Positions 40,332 to 48,799 of a stretch of 64,000 nt of DNA are shown here, piece after piece; positions within the stretch are counted from its first letter, which is position 1; every line of letters starts with the position of its first letter. This DNA comes from Promethearchaeota archaeon. Lineage in GTDB: Archaea > Asgardarchaeota > Lokiarchaeia > Sigyniarchaeales > SOKP01. Location of the stretch: assembly GCA_048939015.1 (NCBI GenBank), contig JBHLPW010000004.1, positions 32,001 to 96,000 on the forward strand. Reading direction: 5' to 3'. The notes beneath the pieces are model-generated. The model was not told the DNA's origin and did not search any database. It was given only the letters and a program-made list of their open reading frames with translations. Made by a program: the position numbers and the translations under genes.

Positions 40332-40847
40332 TTATAAGTTCTTTACAAGTTCCTTTGCTAATAATTCAAAAGCTAGATTTACATTCTCTCCAGTCTTAGA
40401 AGATATCTTTAAATAATTAAAAAAATCATATTTCGCCATATAATTTAATGCGAATTCATCTCGAACTGTATTAACATCAATCAAATCTAATTTAGTACCT
40501 AGAAAAATAATTGGAATTCCCGGATTATTTTGTCTACAAATATTAATCCATTGGTCGATTCGTAGTAAACTTGATGGTCTGGTAAGATCAAACAACATTA
40601 ATGCGCCTCTTGCACCTGTTGCATAATTACTCAAGAGAGGTCTAAAATGCTCTTGTCCGCCAAAATCCCATACTTGAAGCAAAATTTTTTTCCCATCGAT
40701 TCTTAATTCTTTAAGAAAAAACTCTACACCTATCGTCATTTTTGTATTAACTAAAAATTTTCCCTCTATATATCTATAAAGGAGTGTAGTCTTTCCAACA
40801 CCACCATCACCTGCGGTAATCACTTTCAAAAGTATAGGTTTTTCCAT
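40332..40847 (-). CDS. Rab/Ras-like small GTPase
   Basis: GDGGVGKT, TIGVEF, WDFGGQ, TKLD and ISSK. Confidence 0.93.
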   Translation of the reverse strand: MEKPILLKVITAGDGGVGKTTLLYRYIEGKFLVNTKMTIGVEFFLKELRIDGKKILLQVWDFGGQEHFRPLLSNYATGARGALMLFDLTRPSSLLRIDQWINICRQNNPGIPIIFLGTKLDLIDVNTVRDEFALNYMAKYDFFNYLKISSKTGENVNLAFELLAKELVKNL

Positions 40848-40967: not shown

Positions 40968-41411
40968 TTAAGCTCTCTCAACGGATAAATATTTCTTTTG
41001 TCTTAAAAAAATTGTACTTATATTAATTCTTTTCGCTTTTCTACGCAGTTCTGAATCGTTTGTTGCAAGATACACATTTTGACCAATAATTTGTAGTTCT
41101 TGTGACTTTCTTAATAAGAAATCATCAGTCTTTTCAGTAATTTCTTTTATATCTTCTAAAATTTCAATGTTATAATTTTGTTTATTCTTATCTATATACG
41201 ATATCCCATTCTCAAGTAATCTAATATACTTGGTGCCCTTTTGCTCTCTTGTTCGTTTAGATTCTAATTCATTTAAAATTTGGCGAAATATCACAAATTT
41301 TAATCTTCCTACAATGATAAATCTAATTTCATTTAAATAATCAATTTTAAATTGGAAAGGAAGTAAAATAAAATTAGAATCGAGAATTATTATATTAATT
41401 TTAGAATTCAA
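40968..41411 (-). CDS. PIN-domain ribonuclease, Fcf1/Utp23-like
   Basis: ILDSNF, ELE, TDD and ATNDSELR acidic active-site residues; FLRQKKYL tail. Confidence 0.85.
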   Translation of the reverse strand: MNSKINIIILDSNFILLPFQFKIDYLNEIRFIIVGRLKFVIFRQILNELESKRTREQKGTKYIRLLENGISYIDKNKQNYNIEILEDIKEITEKTDDFLLRKSQELQIIGQNVYLATNDSELRRKAKRINISTIFLRQKKYLSVERA

Positions 41412-41929
41412 TAGGATTGACGCTCTAATATTTTTCTAGTTAAAAGAGAAAAAGCTTCTTGAACATTTTGTCCTGTTTTTGAAGAGATTTTGACAAAATC
41501 TATTAAATTAAATTCTTTTAAAAATGAGGTTGCATAATCATCATCAACCATAATCTCATCCTCCAAATCCAATTTTGTACCTAAAAAGAGAACAGGAAGA
41601 TTTGGGTCGCCTTTACGCACGATATTTATCCATTGTTGCAAGTTCTCCAATGTAGTTATACGAGTGAGGTCAAACATCAGTAGCGCGCCTTTTGCTCCTA
41701 ATACATAACTTTCAAGAAGAAAGCGAAACCTTTCCTGACCTCCGAAATCCCACAGTTGCAGAGTGCATTGTTTAGAATCAATTTCTGTCTCTTTTAGGAA
41801 AAATTCTACTCCAATTGTCATTTTTGTTTCAGCGGAGAATTTTCCCTCTACATATCTATGTAATAATGTTGTTTTTCCCACTCCACCTTCTCCTGCAGTT
41901 AAAATCTTCAATATGAATTTTTGAGGCAT
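41408..41929 (-). CDS. Rab/Ras-like small GTPase
   Basis: GEGGVGKT, TIGVEF, WDFGGQERF, TKLD and ISSK. Confidence 0.94.
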   Translation of the reverse strand: MPQKFILKILTAGEGGVGKTTLLHRYVEGKFSAETKMTIGVEFFLKETEIDSKQCTLQLWDFGGQERFRFLLESYVLGAKGALLMFDLTRITTLENLQQWINIVRKGDPNLPVLFLGTKLDLEDEIMVDDDYATSFLKEFNLIDFVKISSKTGQNVQEAFSLLTRKILERQSY

Positions 41930-43130: not shown

Positions 43131-43673
43131 TTAAGCAAACCTTTGCTTATCTCTATGTTCTTTTACTGAGATTTCTCTTTCGTCTAGTCTATTAAGTCTA
43201 ATTAAGTTTTCCTTAATTACTTTAATTTCAGCTTTTGTTATAATTTTATAATCTTTTAAATTATCAAGAATTTCTTTTTCACTAAAGCCCTTATTATACA
43301 ATTCTTGAAATTTCTCGATTGTCTCCTGATGATAAAAAATATATTGTTTATTTAGAAAGACTATTAACCACTTTTTTTTCTCTTGATTCTGAGATAATTC
43401 AAATAACTCGTCTTGTATTACTTCAATGTGTTTTTCAAACTTTCGTGCTATTAACTCATCTTCAATTTTATAAAATTGTTTCATAAATTTCTGAAGTTTA
43501 TTTTTAAAAAACAATTTTGGGATGTAAGATAAAATGAATAACAATAAAGTGATCCCGGACATCCAAATTGCTGCAATGTGATTATAAATCGCAACAATGA
43601 TTATTATGAAGACTAGAATTAGAAACCATTTTCTTCCAATGGTCTTAGTTATGACAATATACTTTTTTGGCAA
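43131..43673 (-). CDS. Hypothetical membrane protein
   Basis: Two N-terminal TM helices plus a soluble domain. Confidence 0.75.
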   Translation of the reverse strand: MPKKYIVITKTIGRKWFLILVFIIIIVAIYNHIAAIWMSGITLLLFILSYIPKLFFKNKLQKFMKQFYKIEDELIARKFEKHIEVIQDELFELSQNQEKKKWLIVFLNKQYIFYHQETIEKFQELYNKGFSEKEILDNLKDYKIITKAEIKVIKENLIRLNRLDEREISVKEHRDKQRFA

Positions 43674-43763
43674 TGATTAACACAAAATTTATTCAATATT
43701 AATTAAGGTTATATTTAATAGTTTAAAAACTTAATTTTAGAAGAGATAAAAAAGTAGACGACA

Positions 43764-43948
43764 TATAACCACATAAAAAAGGCGTGACCGGGTATTTTCC
43801 TTGTATGCCATGACCGTAAGCTAACTTACAGTTTGTAGTTTCCCATAAACCGTAATTACAGTACTATCTACAACGCTAAACAAGTTTAACTTCCGGGTTC
43901 GGATGGTTCCAGCGCCATAGCGAATTGCTATTGGTTCATGTGGTTATA
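43764..43948. repeat. 11-bp perfect inverted repeat flanking the 5S gene (candidate processing stem)
   Basis: TATAACCACAT at 43764-43774 and ATGTGGTTATA at 43938-43948. Confidence 0.85.
43781..43916 (-). rRNA. rrf: 5S rRNA, circularly permuted gene
   Basis: Minus strand reads CCATCCGAACCCGGAAGTTAAAC..AGCG..AGTACTG..GGGAAA..CTGTAAG (3' part), then TTAG, then CTTACGGTCATGGC..ATACCCGGTC (5' part). Helices I-V can be paired by eye; the re-ordered length is about 118 nt. Confidence 0.88.
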
Positions 43949-44036
43949 AACGCTAGTGTTAACCATTATATAAGGTCGGTTATTTTATAAGAAAATACCT
44001 ACTTATATGGTTAATAGTAAATAGGAATAATACAAG

Positions 44037-44089: not shown

Positions 44090-44656
44090 GTGGTGCTGTT
44101 TATAGTATTATTTCAATTAATAATCCAAGGAGTAAAATGGTACCAATTTCTGATTAATGCGACTATAACAATTTTAGGAAGATCGCTTGACATTTTAAGC
44201 ACGAGATATGTAACAAGAGAACTTAAATTAGAAACAAATCGAATTGCTCGTAAAATAGGCTGGCGTGGGATGATCTTACTTCAAATTCCAATAGTAATAT
44301 TGGGATCATTAGATTTCTATTTTAGTTTTTTCATATTATGGTGGAGTATTTTTCTCTTTGCCAATAATATTGAGGGAAGTTGGTATATAAGAGAAGCTGG
44401 AGAAAAAGAGTATCAAAAAGAAATAAAATCAAGATTAGAAACCTCTAAAATATGGAAAATAGTTTTTGGAGAATTATCTTCAATTTTAAAATTTACTTTA
44501 GCAGGCGTTTTTATCATCATCTTCCTATTTATTTTTGAAGATCTTTTAGCTGTTTTTTTGATTTCATTAGCTTTAATAATTCAAGGTATATTTGGAACTA
44601 TTAGTTCTATTTTATATCTTTTAGAGTTGAAAAAAGATAAATCTAAAGAAGAATAA
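44090..44656 (+). CDS. Hypothetical multi-TM membrane protein
   Basis: Hydrophobic helices; LDILST...ETN motif. Confidence 0.7.
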   Translation: MVLFIVLFQLIIQGVKWYQFLINATITILGRSLDILSTRYVTRELKLETNRIARKIGWRGMILLQIPIVILGSLDFYFSFFILWWSIFLFANNIEGSWYIREAGEKEYQKEIKSRLETSKIWKIVFGELSSILKFTLAGVFIIIFLFIFEDLLAVFLISLALIIQGIFGTISSILYLLELKKDKSKEE

Positions 44657-47245: not shown

Positions 47246-48799
47246 ATGTCGCCTGATTTAACTGATATCGCGGGAATAGGAAAAGCTACTGCAGACAAAA
47301 TAAAAGCAGCAGGGATAGATAGTATTGAAAAACTAGCAAATGTAAAACTAGATGATTTAGTGAAGTTGAAAATTAAGGGAGTTGGAAAAGCAACTGCACA
47401 AAAATATATAAATAATGCAAAAAATATACTTGCAGAAGCAGGATCTCAAACAGAAACAGAATCTAAACTAATTTCCGCAATTAATGAAAAATCAGCATTA
47501 AAAACAAAAACCGAACCTAAAGTTGAGTTCTCTAACATAAAAGAATTAATGAAACAACAAGCAGAATGCAATATTGGATTAGTAGGTCATGTAGATCATG
47601 GTAAAACTAGTTTAGTAAAAGCACTTACAGGGGATTGGACAGATAGGCATTCAGAAGAACAAGAAAGAGGGATCTCGATAAAACTCGGATATTCTAATGC
47701 TACTATTTTATACTGCTCTACCTGTGATCAATATTTAACATATTATTTATCTGAAAAAGCAAGAAAAAAGGGAGAACAGAGATATTTATGCCCTAACTGT
47801 AAAGAACAATTAGAATTTAAAAGAAATATTTCATTTGTCGACGCACCTGGCCATGAAATATTAATGGCAACAATGTTAAGTGGAGCTTCACTTATGGATG
47901 GCGCTTGTCTATTAATTGCTGCTGACGAAGATTGTCCTCAACCTCAAACTAGAGAACATTTGGAAGCATTACATATTGCTGGTATAGAAAATATAATTAT
48001 TCTGCAAAATAAAATTGATGCAGTTTCACGAGAGTTAGCACTAGAGAATTTTCGACAAATAAAGGAATTTGTCAAAGGTTCTATTGCAGAAAATGCTCCA
48101 ATTATCCCAATTTCCGCTGTATTTGGAGCAAATATAAACCAAGTATTAAAAGCATTTGAAGAAATTATTCCATCTCCTAAACGTAGTGAAGGAGAGTTTC
48201 AATTTTTAATTGCGAGATCTTTTGATATTAATCGACCAGGGAAAGCTATCAATGATCTAAAAGGTGGTGTAATAGGCGGATCTGTCTTAAAAGGAGATAT
48301 TGATGTGGGTGCACAAATTGAAATTCGACCAGGCTTAAGAATGAAAGATAAATATGTTCCTTTAAAATCAACTGTTGTGAGTATCAGCCAAGGAAGTAAT
48401 TTATTAGACAAAGCGAAACCTGGAGGACTTATAGGATTGGGAACTAAATTAGATCCCGCCTTAACTAAAGGTGATCACTTAATTGGGCATTTGGTTGGAA
48501 AACCAGGGACATTACCTGATGTTATTGATGAGGTGGAATTAAGAATTAATCTTTTAGATAGAGTAATTGGTTCTGAACAAATGCTAAGAGTCCATTCAGT
48601 TAAGCATAATGAAAAGTTATTACTAGTTGTTGGAACGGAAAAAACCGGCGGACTAGTAACTAAAATATTAAAAAATAGTGTTGTCTTGAAGTTAAATCCT
48701 CCAATATGTCCTCCCGAAGATTTTATATTTGCAATTTCAAGAATTATAAATAGGCGTTATCGATTAATCGGATATGGAGAACTAATTAATCATAATTAA
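47246..48799 (+). CDS. eif2g: Translation initiation factor aIF-2 gamma with N-terminal helix-hairpin-helix extension
   Basis: NIGLVGHVDHGKT, RGISIKLGY, DAPGHE, QNKID, RSFDINRPG and RLIGYG; about 100-aa N-terminal extension. Confidence 0.96.
   Translation: MSPDLTDIAGIGKATADKIKAAGIDSIEKLANVKLDDLVKLKIKGVGKATAQKYINNAKNILAEAGSQTETESKLISAINEKSALKTKTEPKVEFSNIKELMKQQAECNIGLVGHVDHGKTSLVKALTGDWTDRHSEEQERGISIKLGYSNATILYCSTCDQYLTYYLSEKARKKGEQRYLCPNCKEQLEFKRNISFVDAPGHEILMATMLSGASLMDGACLLIAADEDCPQPQTREHLEALHIAGIENIIILQNKIDAVSRELALENFRQIKEFVKGSIAENAPIIPISAVFGANINQVLKAFEEIIPSPKRSEGEFQFLIARSFDINRPGKAINDLKGGVIGGSVLKGDIDVGAQIEIRPGLRMKDKYVPLKSTVVSISQGSNLLDKAKPGGLIGLGTKLDPALTKGDHLIGHLVGKPGTLPDVIDEVELRINLLDRVIGSEQMLRVHSVKHNEKLLLVVGTEKTGGLVTKILKNSVVLKLNPPICPPEDFIFAISRIINRRYRLIGYGELINHN

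What the first reader, a model, noticed from the sequence alone, without database searches (positions are those of the whole stretch)
43781..43916. Circularly permuted 5S rRNA gene
Seen (minus strand): GGCGCTGGA-[ACCATCCGAACCCGGAAGTTAAACTTGTTTAGCGTTGTAGATAGTACTGTAATTACGGTTTATGGGAAACTACAAACTGTAAG]-TTAG-[CTTACGGTCATGGCATACAAGGAAAATACCCGGTC]-ACGCC-TTTTTT. The first block (43907-43825) is 5S from loop C to the canonical 3' end; the second (43820-43786) is the canonical 5' end. Swapping them gives an ordinary 5S of about 118 nt: helix I CTTACGG/CTGTAAG, helix II GCATACAAG/CTTGTTTAGC with the bulged A, helix III AC-CCGG/CCGG-AA-GT, helix V TTGTAG/CTACAA, loop E AGTA/GAA, helix IV CTGTAA/TTATGG. In the gene, helix I is capped by a TTAG loop and the termini fall in loop C, clamped by GGCG/CGCC. 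Established: permuted tRNA and SRP RNA genes exist in some archaea, and loop C contacts uL5. Inference: the ribosome carries either a permuted 5S with ends in loop C or one re-ligated through a circular intermediate. A linear covariance model would hit it only partly, so it could be widely unannotated. I do not know of a prior description in Asgard archaea but could not search.
Basis: partly seen in the sequence, partly recalled or inferred. Interest (0 to 1): 0.95.

Follow-up and report, generated by a model that had tools for sequence, protein, structure and literature searches.

The report
Permuted 5S rRNA gene making rings
This Asgard (Lokiarchaeia-type) archaeon encodes its only 5S ribosomal RNA back part first, between tRNA-splicing-type cut signals, and environmental RNA contains the predicted re-joined 121-nt ring, which explains why standard tools find no 5S gene here.

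Summary
Window 43786-43906 (minus strand) is the only 5S-like locus in this 95%-complete genome. It scores below Rfam's cut-off (27.9 vs 38 bits) because the canonical 5' third lies downstream of the 3' two thirds, joined by a 4-nt cap on helix I.

Swapping the blocks gives a full-length match to canonical 5S of a sister family. Helices I-V pair in 94.7% of cells across 38 distinct relatives.

The flanks form a covarying 11-14 bp leader/trailer stem, a leader hairpin and a relaxed bulge-helix-bulge motif: a 3-4 bp outer helix, a 3-nt bulge and a 4-bp central helix.

Cutting after the second bulge nucleotide on each side predicts joining 43786 to 43906. Metatranscriptome contigs from four runs (three studies) show this join: three carry exactly this joint, and the fourth wraps around it only as short loose ends. 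Two contigs are 151 nt long, that is 121 plus k-1.

Relatives in the same family open the same circle 16 nt away and encode loop C intact, with the predicted sequence. The genome has a catalytic-type and a structural-type EndA paralogue plus RtcB.

It is not shown whether the ring itself sits in the ribosome or is re-opened.

This scan had already noted permuted 5S genes in many other Asgard genomes. I found no paper describing them.

The parts
43966..43973 (-). TATA-like promoter element (inferred)
   Evidence: An A/T box about 25 nt upstream of the processing stem. A similar box sits at the same distance in relatives (upstream columns). Not tested.
43935..43948 (-). 5' strand of the leader/trailer processing stem
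   Evidence: The MFE fold of the precursor pairs it with 43764-43778. Relatives keep an 11-14 bp duplex here through many compensatory changes.
43917..43931 (-). Leader hairpin (5 bp, 5-nt loop) between the processing stem and the cut motif
   Evidence: 100% paired in 14 genus members. The outermost pair is G-C in 12 and A-U in 2, including the window. Present in most family members.
43913..43916 (-). Outer helix H1, leader strand (GGCG)
   Evidence: Pairs with 43781-43784. The three inner pairs form in 52-53 of 53 distinct flank combinations with many pair types, against 2-8 of 53 in most shifted controls.
43909..43912 (-). Central 4-bp helix H2, leader strand (CUGG)
   Evidence: Pairs with 43788-43791. 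It forms in 50-53 of 53 combinations. The second pair is U-G in 18, C-G in 20 and U-A in 15.
43907..43908 (-). Leader part of the 5' bulge (AA); the cut falls after it
   Evidence: RNA contigs begin the joined form at 43906. AA precedes the cut in nearly all relatives.
43786..43906 (-). The 121-nt 5S RNA as excised and joined. 43906-43825 runs from loop C to the 3' strand of helix I; 43824-43821 is the UUAG cap; 43820-43786 runs from the 5' strand of helix I to the 5' strand of helix III.
   Evidence: Contigs of four RNA runs cover exactly this span. Three join 43906 back to 43786 with no positional ambiguity; the fourth wraps around the same junction only as 14- and 16-nt loose ends. Swapped order matches canonical 5S end to end. 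Helices I-V pair in 94.7% of cells.
43788..43791 (-). Central helix H2, 5S-side strand (CCGG). It is also the 5' strand of helix III in the mature fold.
   Evidence: The alternative pairing with 43868-43871 (helix III) is counted.
43781..43785 (-). Third bulge nucleotide (A43785) and outer helix H1, trailer strand (CGCC)
   Evidence: The 3-nt bulge U-C-A lies between H2 and H1. The cut falls after C43786.
43764..43778 (-). 3' strand of the processing stem
43748..43753 (-). T run after the processing stem, the likely terminator (inferred)
   Evidence: Read. A T run follows the 3' strand of the stem in many relatives. Not tested.

Best explanation
This is the genome's functional 5S rRNA gene, written in circularly permuted order.

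Proposed pathway:
1. A precursor of about 200 nt is transcribed from its own promoter.
2. Its leader and trailer pair into a long processing stem. This stem continues, past a leader hairpin, into a relaxed bulge-helix-bulge motif. The motif has an outer helix GGCG/CGCC, a 3-nt bulge U-C-A on the trailer side, a central 4-bp helix CUGG/CCGG, and A-A-C on the leader side.
3. The tRNA-splicing endonuclease cuts after the second bulge nucleotide on each side.
4. RtcB joins the two ends of the excised piece.

The product is a 121-nt closed ring. In it loop C is restored, helix III can form, and helix I is closed by a UUAG tetraloop.

Shown: the permuted order; the conserved, covarying 5S fold; the covarying flank helices; the exact junction in environmental RNA; the presence of the enzyme genes.

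Inferred: that EndA and RtcB do the cutting and joining, and that the ring itself is what the ribosome carries rather than a re-opened linear form. I put the second at about 55%.
For: - Only 5S-like locus in the genome, and below Rfam's cut-off.
- No f1 genome searched had a 5S match above the cut-off. That covers 24 genus-mates, including the single-contig genomes G006 and G022, and 34 family members in the phylum sample. Sister family f2 has canonical 5S at 53-69 bits.
- The block-swapped sequence matches the canonical HMM end to end; the native sequence matches in two pieces in the wrong order.
- Named structure on 14 genus members: 94.9% of cells paired against 29-41% for slid controls, with 6 pairs changed on both sides.
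- 38 distinct intron-free circles of the family: 94.7% paired against 33-46%, with up to 6 pair types per pair.
- Flanks: H1 pairs in 52-53 of 53 distinct flank combinations through fully different sequences. H2 pairs in 50-53 of 53 with a covarying second pair.
- Leader/trailer stem of 11-14 bp with many compensatory variants, recovered by the MFE fold.
- RNA: contigs from runs X1, X5 and X7 join 43906 back to 43786 ('goes back 121', ambiguity 0). X3 wraps around the same junction as loose ends. Two contigs are 151 nt, that is 121 plus k-1, and they differ from the window at one base.
- Natural control: most family members, including genus-mates, open the same circle 16 nt away. They encode loop C contiguously with exactly the sequence predicted for the ligated window RNA.
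- Enzymes: two EndA paralogues, one keeping Tyr/His/Lys and one with Asn for His, as in heterotetrameric relaxed-specificity enzymes, plus one RtcB.
- Precedent for the same mechanism on SRP RNA: PMC4731332.
- A 4-nt connector closing helix I is tolerated in engineered E. coli ribosomes: PMC7283268.
Against: - No inner helix closes the leader-side bulge, so the motif is not a strict hBHBh'. Cleavage by EndA is untested.
- The RNA evidence is from assembled contigs of environmental runs, from a strain one base different. Contigs cannot give abundance, ends or strand. They cannot say whether the ring or a re-opened linear form predominates or is in ribosomes.
- A cyclic contig could in principle be stitched from linear transcripts of two gene types with the same sequence. 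No near-identical gene of the other type was seen among the loci examined.
- The genome is a 125-contig assembly, 94.9% complete, so a second canonical gene cannot be excluded absolutely.
Confidence: 0.82

Rival explanations
1. The ring is only a processing intermediate. After ligation restores loop C, a nuclease opens the UUAG cap of helix I, and the ribosome carries an ordinary linear 5S. This is how permuted tRNAs of Cyanidioschyzon mature, and how circular pre-16S rRNA is thought to be re-linearised.
For: Re-opening of circular intermediates is the classical model for archaeal 16S/23S (PMC12918454 background) and for permuted tRNAs (cited in PMC4267664). Contigs cannot measure the ratio of cap-crossing to junction-crossing molecules.
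Against: - The cap is a tight, sequence-variable tetraloop (UUAG, UUUG, UUCG, UCCG and others) with no conserved cut motif.
- In some relatives the cap carries a roughly 30-nt insert. If that insert is spliced out like an intron, the cap is left closed.
- Every RNA contig runs through the cap.
- Circular SRP RNA and circular 23S rRNA are reported as mature forms (PMC4731332, PMC12918454).
Confidence: 0.27
2. The RNA is never ligated. The ribosome carries a linear, permuted 5S whose ends lie in loop C, held together by the flank helix. This was the first reader's first alternative, and resembles the permuted mitochondrial 5S of brown algae.
For: Brown-algal mitochondrial 5S is permuted in the final product (PMC4267664).
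Against: - The joined 43786/43906 form is present in RNA of four runs from three studies.
- Relatives encode loop C uninterrupted and break the molecule elsewhere, so an open loop C is not a conserved feature of the RNA.
- The clamp helix lies outside the RNA recovered.
Confidence: 0.04
3. Artefact or relic. Either a collapsed tandem array of normal 5S genes, or a pseudogene while the working 5S lies in an unassembled part of the genome.
For: Sister family f2 does have tandem canonical 5S genes: three copies at 375-nt spacing in G032. The genome is in 125 contigs.
Against: - The two blocks are 4 nt apart, with no spacer, promoter or terminator between them.
- The locus has unique flanks inside a contig of at least 96 kb.
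- The same layout occurs once per genome in 118 of 131 family genomes, including single-contig ones.
- The fold and flanks covary and the RNA is found.
- No match above cut-off elsewhere in the genome.
Confidence: 0.01

Closest known systems
Permuted, circularised SRP RNA gene of Thermoproteus tenax / T. uzoniensis (Plagens et al. 2015, eLife, PMC4731332)
   Same: An essential structured RNA is encoded 3' part first. Leader and trailer fold into a BHB with a 4-bp central helix and at least one 3-nt bulge. The junction lies next to a functionally important loop, and RNA-seq shows a ligated circular product. The organism has a heterotetramer-type splicing endonuclease with relaxed specificity. 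The circle is the working form.
   Different: Here the RNA is 5S rRNA, a ribosome component, and the host is an Asgard archaeon. A long rRNA-style processing stem and a leader hairpin precede the motif. The break point differs between close relatives. Cleavage by the enzyme and binding of partner proteins were shown for SRP RNA but not here.
Circularly permuted tRNA genes of Cyanidioschyzon merolae (Soma et al. 2007, as cited in PMC4267664)
   Same: The 3' half is encoded before the 5' half. Expression goes through a circular RNA made at a BHB-like motif.
   Different: Those circles are re-opened to give linear tRNAs with normal ends. They occur in a eukaryotic nucleus. Here no re-opening signal is seen at the cap.
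Archaeal circular pre-16S/23S rRNA, circular mature 23S rRNA (PMC12918454) and permuted 23S of Pyrococcus (PMC7758197)
   Same: Long inverted repeats flank an rRNA and form a processing stem with a BHB. EndA excision and ligation give a circle, and for 23S the circle can be the ribosomal form.
   Different: Those genes are colinear with the RNA, and circularisation joins the natural ends. That literature states that 5S is not processed this way. Here ligation is needed to create loop C, because the gene itself is permuted.
Permuted mitochondrial 5S rRNA of brown algae (Valach et al. 2014, PMC4267664; Rfam mtPerm-5S)
   Same: A 5S rRNA whose helix I is closed as a hairpin, and which standard models miss.
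   Different: That RNA stays linear, with its ends at the three-way junction. There is no BHB and no ligation, it is organellar, and the break lies elsewhere.
Engineered circularly permuted 5S in E. coli (Huang et al. 2020, PMC7283268)
   Same: The native ends are joined by a 4-nt connector and the molecule is opened in loop C or loop D. The cells are viable, so a capped helix I is compatible with a working ribosome.
   Different: It is artificial, bacterial, and tethered into 23S rRNA rather than circular.

Membership tests
5S rRNA (Rfam RF00001) | Score at or above the gathering threshold (38 bits) over the full model | tested here: not met
   The native locus scores 27.9 bits. Only the part from loop C to the 3' end is well aligned.
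5S rRNA (Rfam RF00001) | Full-length sequence likeness to canonical 5S once the blocks are swapped | tested here: met
   nhmmer with an HMM of 9 canonical 5S genes of family f2 gives hmm 4-114, 40.2 bits, E 3e-13 for the swapped sequence. The native order gives two separate pieces.
5S rRNA (Rfam RF00001) | Three-way junction with helices I-V, loop C, loop E and loop D, supported by covariation | tested here: met
   94.9% of cells paired on 14 sequences (slid controls 29-41%). 94.7% paired on 38 distinct circles (slid 33-46%), with 2-6 pair types at most variable pairs.
5S rRNA (Rfam RF00001) | It is the cell's 5S: no other copy exists, and it is present in ribosomes | tested here: inconclusive
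   No other match in the 94.9%-complete genome or in relatives. Presence in ribosomes is not testable here.
BHB-processed permuted RNA genes (permuted tRNA, permuted SRP RNA) | The 3' part is encoded upstream of the 5' part, with the natural ends joined by a short loop | tested here: met
   The cap is 4 nt.
BHB-processed permuted RNA genes (permuted tRNA, permuted SRP RNA) | Leader and trailer pair to form the cut motif at the new ends | tested here: met
   H1 and H2 counts with covariation over 53 flank combinations. Processing stem.
BHB-processed permuted RNA genes (permuted tRNA, permuted SRP RNA) | The ligated junction is present in RNA | tested here: met
   The 43906-to-43786 joint appears in contigs of X1, X5 and X7, and as loose ends in X3. 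These are three studies. Contigs only; no raw reads.
BHB-processed permuted RNA genes (permuted tRNA, permuted SRP RNA) | Cleavage by the tRNA-splicing endonuclease and ligation by RtcB | not testable with these tools
   The genes are present: two EndA paralogues and one RtcB. The cut positions follow the 'after bulge nucleotide 2' rule, which I derived from tRNA intron geometry (established knowledge).
Strict bulge-helix-bulge motif (hBHBh') | A central 4-bp helix flanked by two 3-nt bulges on opposite strands | tested here: met
   CUGG/CCGG, with U-C-A on the trailer side and A-A-C on the leader side.
Strict bulge-helix-bulge motif (hBHBh') | Both bulges are closed by an outer helix | tested here: not met
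   The trailer-side bulge is closed by H1. I found no helix closing the leader-side bulge in the window type. So this is a relaxed (hBH-type) motif, of the kind reported for heterotetrameric enzymes (PMC4731332).

The most novel reading that the evidence does not exclude
The ribosome of this Lokiarchaeial family, and probably of many other Asgard lineages whose 5S genes escape RF00001, carries a covalently closed circular 5S rRNA with no free ends. The gene's opening point has moved repeatedly: loop C here, the helix III/loop B border in most relatives, and loop B in a neighbouring family. Any opening flanked by a splicing motif yields the same ring. The splicing endonuclease would then be essential for making ribosomes in the closest archaeal relatives of eukaryotes.
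Probability: 0.5. Interest if true: 0.9.

Novelty: new variant of a known kind. Interest (0 to 1): 0.85.

Why it matters
5S rRNA is regarded as a universally linear, easily found RNA, and reviews state that archaeal 5S is not processed through circles. Three things follow from this locus.

- It explains a practical gap. RF00001 passes its cut-off in only 47 of 151 Asgard genomes at least 85% complete. A paper on closed Heimdallarchaeum genomes says 5S could not be predicted (PMC8813620).
- It makes 5S, and hence ribosome production, depend on the tRNA-splicing endonuclease and ligase in this lineage.
- It offers a natural test of whether a ribosome can run on a circular 5S. It also gives a family in which the opening point of a permuted gene has shifted between close relatives, which bears on how such genes arise.

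Annotation pipelines could recover these genes with a permuted covariance model.

Tried and rejected
- Rfam at gathering threshold on the whole window found nothing.
- Folding the bare 140-nt native stretch was uninformative: z = -1.15, and the MFE mispairs the leader with helix II.
- I could not score the rotated sequence with RF00001, because cmscan accepts only held DNA. I used an HMM and explicit pair counts instead.
- I looked for an inner helix closing the leader-side bulge and found none in the window type. In the other type only a weak 2-3 bp option exists.
- My regular expressions missed some divergent loci (for example L062, L076, L087), so the type counts are lower bounds.
- The break point and motif of the family-f3 locus (L011/L100) were seen but not dissected.
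- The parts of the laid stretch outside 43786-43906 had no contig cover in the four RNA runs.
- Four literature searches for a permuted or circular archaeal 5S found no such paper. The library lacks most subscription journals, so this is not proof of absence.
- The BHB-type insert in aIF2-gamma that earlier notes report in relatives is not present at the P-loop of this window's gene.
- The collapsed-array and pseudogene readings were rejected as set out under the rival explanations.

Full report
**What is in the sequence**

The order is:
- a GGCG clamp;
- a block running from loop C to the canonical 3' end of 5S;
- a 4-nt UUAG loop (43824-43821);
- the canonical 5' third (43820-43786);
- CGCC and a T run.

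The locus lies in a 416-nt gap between two ORFs, 43131-43673 and 44090-44656. Rfam at its curated thresholds sees nothing in the window. With permissive settings RF00001 hits 43823-43935 at 27.9 bits, against a cut-off of 38. Good alignment starts only at loop C, and the model's 5' strands are forced onto unrelated leader sequence.

**Is it the 5S gene?**

It is the only RF00001-like place in the whole 4.86-Mb, 94.9%-complete assembly. In 24 other genomes of the genus, 20 have one such sub-threshold hit and none has a hit above the cut-off. Two of these are single-contig genomes. Sister family f2 of the same order has ordinary 5S genes at 53-69 bits.

I built an HMM from nine f2 genes. The native locus matches it in two pieces in the wrong order (hmm 35-115, then hmm 3-29 downstream). 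The block-swapped sequence matches end to end (hmm 4-114, 40.2 bits, E 3e-13).

Fourteen genus members align with 84% mean column identity. A structure I named from the 5S model pairs 94.9% of cells, against 29-41% when partners are slid. Six pairs change on both sides.

A covariance model of the permuted layout finds exactly one locus in 118 of 131 sampled genomes of the family, across 12 genera. It finds essentially nothing in f2.

I rotated 38 distinct intron-free sequences of the family to a common origin. Helices I-V pair in 94.7% of cells (slid: 33-46%), with up to six pair types per position. This is a conserved, selected 5S RNA, not a relic or an assembly artefact.

**The flanks**

Upstream and downstream sequences are conserved and complementary.

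A leader segment (43948-43935) and a trailer segment (43778-43764) form an 11-14 bp duplex. In relatives the duplex is kept through many different sequences, which is clear compensatory change. The MFE fold of the window's precursor recovers this stem, a 5-bp leader hairpin (43931-43917) and the GGCG/CGCC helix. The T run next to the clamp is therefore inside the precursor. A second T run (43753-43748) follows the stem and is the likelier terminator.

Between the clamp and the 5S body, the leader CUGG (43912-43909) can pair with CCGG (43791-43788). This leaves U-C-A as a 3-nt bulge on the trailer side and A-A-C on the leader side.

Counts over 53 distinct flank combinations from the family:
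- The three inner pairs of the outer helix form in 52-53 cases, using quite different triplets. Most shifted registers give 2-8 of 53.
- The central helix forms in 50-53 cases.
- Its second pair is U-G, C-G or U-A in comparable numbers.

This is a central 4-bp helix with a 3-nt bulge closed by an outer helix. It fits the working definition of a BHB given by Plagens et al. (PMC4731332). I found no inner helix closing the leader-side bulge, so the motif is relaxed rather than strict.

**Prediction and test**

In tRNA introns the endonuclease cuts after the second nucleotide of each bulge. This is established knowledge; I re-derived it from the 37/38 intron geometry. Here that rule gives cuts after A43907 and after C43786. 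It predicts a 121-nt excised piece whose ends, once joined, rebuild a 6-nt loop C.

Two independent results agree with this.

First, most family members, including members of the same genus, open the molecule 16 nt further on, between the 3' strand of helix III and loop B. They therefore encode loop C uninterrupted. Their loop C has exactly the sequence predicted for the ligated window RNA. Their own predicted junction restores the segment that is contiguous in the window. Two gene layouts that give the same circle make sense only if the ends are joined.

Second, I laid Logan contigs of four metatranscriptome runs on 43700-44000. The runs were X1 and X7 (sediment, one study) and X5 and X3 (wetland, two further studies), found.
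- Contigs in X1, X5 and X7 run from 43906 straight back into 43786 ('goes back 121', positional ambiguity 0, shorter sides of 33, 30 and 19 nt).
- The X3 contig shows the same wrap-around as loose ends.
- Two contigs are 151 nt long, which is 121 plus k-1, the signature of a cyclic path in a k=31 graph.
- They differ from the window at a single base, so they come from a very close strain.
- Each contig also runs through the helix I cap and through the segment where the other gene type is broken.

The RNA therefore contains the full cycle whichever gene type produced it.

**Enzymes**

The genome encodes two EndA-family proteins of 198 and 206 aa. Both have the N-terminal and catalytic-domain Pfam matches and they share 35% identity. 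One keeps the Tyr/His/Lys positions. The other has Asn in place of His, as expected for a structural subunit. The genome also encodes one RtcB. A catalytic plus structural pair is the heterotetramer type that the literature links with relaxed BHB recognition (PMC4731332). That these proteins act on this RNA is inference.

**What remains open**

Contigs cannot tell how much of the RNA is circular, where ends lie, or what is in the ribosome.

Points in favour of the ring as the mature form:
- The cap is a tight tetraloop that varies freely in sequence, with no conserved cut motif.
- Some relatives even carry a roughly 30-nt insert in the cap. If it is spliced out like an intron, the cap stays closed.
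- Circular SRP RNA and circular 23S rRNA are reported as working forms (PMC4731332; PMC12918454).
- E. coli tolerates a 5S whose native ends are joined by a 4-nt connector (PMC7283268).

Against: circular intermediates that are later re-opened are the classical model for archaeal rRNA and for permuted tRNAs. I put ring-as-mature at about 55%, re-opening at about 27%, and the other readings at a few per cent.

**Comparison with what is known**

The mechanism is that of the permuted SRP RNA of Thermoproteus and of permuted tRNA genes. The precursor architecture, a long covarying stem leading into a BHB, is that of archaeal 16S/23S precursors. The only permuted 5S I found described is the linear mitochondrial one of brown algae (PMC4267664).

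Circular 5S reads were seen at low level in Sulfolobus and Halobacterium. The Sulfolobus 5S circle could not be validated by RT-PCR and was possibly degradative; both organisms have colinear genes (PMC3326292).

Four full-text searches found no paper on a permuted or circular 5S gene in archaea. One paper notes that 5S could not be predicted in closed Heimdallarchaeum genomes (PMC8813620). In a sample of 151 Asgard genomes at least 85% complete, RF00001 passes its cut-off in only 47.

Record titles of 27 species genomes sharing a 27-nt exact motif of the window type read mostly Promethearchaeota or Promethearchaeia.

**Earlier notes of this scan**

The scan had already flagged permuted 5S genes in at least 168 other genomes. 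For relatives of this window it also noted the same cut rule at the other opening point, together with inserts in 5S and in aIF2-gamma. I treated these as leads. Everything above was tested here on this window and its relatives. New relative to the notes I saw:
- the loop C opening type of this lineage;
- its coexistence with the other type inside single genera;
- the use of one type as a control for the junction of the other.

**Verdict**

This is a real, expressed, circularly permuted 5S rRNA gene, matured by splicing-type excision and ligation into a 121-nt ring. It is a new variant of a known kind of system, and of high interest.

Noticed in passing
L028, L018, L030, L072, L098 and others, against L001 and L012-L029 (relatives): Two opening points of the same 5S circle occur within the family, and within single genera (g1, g14). 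One is in loop C, as in the window. The other lies 16 nt away, between helix III and loop B. A third, in loop B, occurs in family f3 (L011/L100). How the opening moves is unknown; possibilities are duplication of the 16-nt segment across the junction, or re-integration of a copy of the ring.
   Followed up: partly
L013, L015, L027, L029, L069, L078, L089, L090 (helix IV loop); L061, L063, L064, L067, L074, L079, L096, L097 (loop C); L080, L094, L095 (helix I cap): Many relatives carry inserts of about 30 nt at three different sites of the 5S gene. Each has a hairpin and flanking complementarity suggestive of BHB introns. Gene lengths fall into classes of about 120, 150 and 180 nt. The window's gene has none.
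   Followed up: partly
G032:C1:1399892-1400758 (L004): A single-contig 4.4-Mb genome of sister family f2 has three canonical 5S genes in tandem at about 375-nt spacing. So canonical and permuted 5S genes coexist within one order.
   Followed up: no
window 47246-48799 (+): An aIF2-gamma gene lies 3.4 kb from the 5S gene. It has an extra N-terminal helix-hairpin-helix domain of about 100 aa. Its P-loop is uninterrupted here, whereas earlier notes report BHB-type inserts at that spot in relatives.
   Followed up: partly
window 40332-40847 (-), 41408-41929 (-), 40968-41411 (-): Two Ras/Roc-family small GTPase genes flank a PIN-domain gene. This is typical Asgard content and supports that the contig is not a contaminant.
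   Followed up: no
L102:1420-2040:- (own genome, contig C35): The second EndA paralogue has Asn where the catalytic His sits in the first paralogue. This suggests a catalytic plus structural heteromer.
   Followed up: partly
L109, L110, L111, L125, L127, L130: Some MAGs that carry the exact 27-nt motif of this lineage's 5S are titled Hermod-, Odin-, Thor- or Hodarchaeota by their submitters. These are probably labelling differences rather than true spread across classes.
   Followed up: no
phylum sample: RF00001 passes its cut-off in only 47 of 151 Asgard genomes at least 85% complete. Whole families show only sub-threshold hits or none. Several genomes show two adjacent weak hits, as expected for split or permuted genes.
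   Followed up: no
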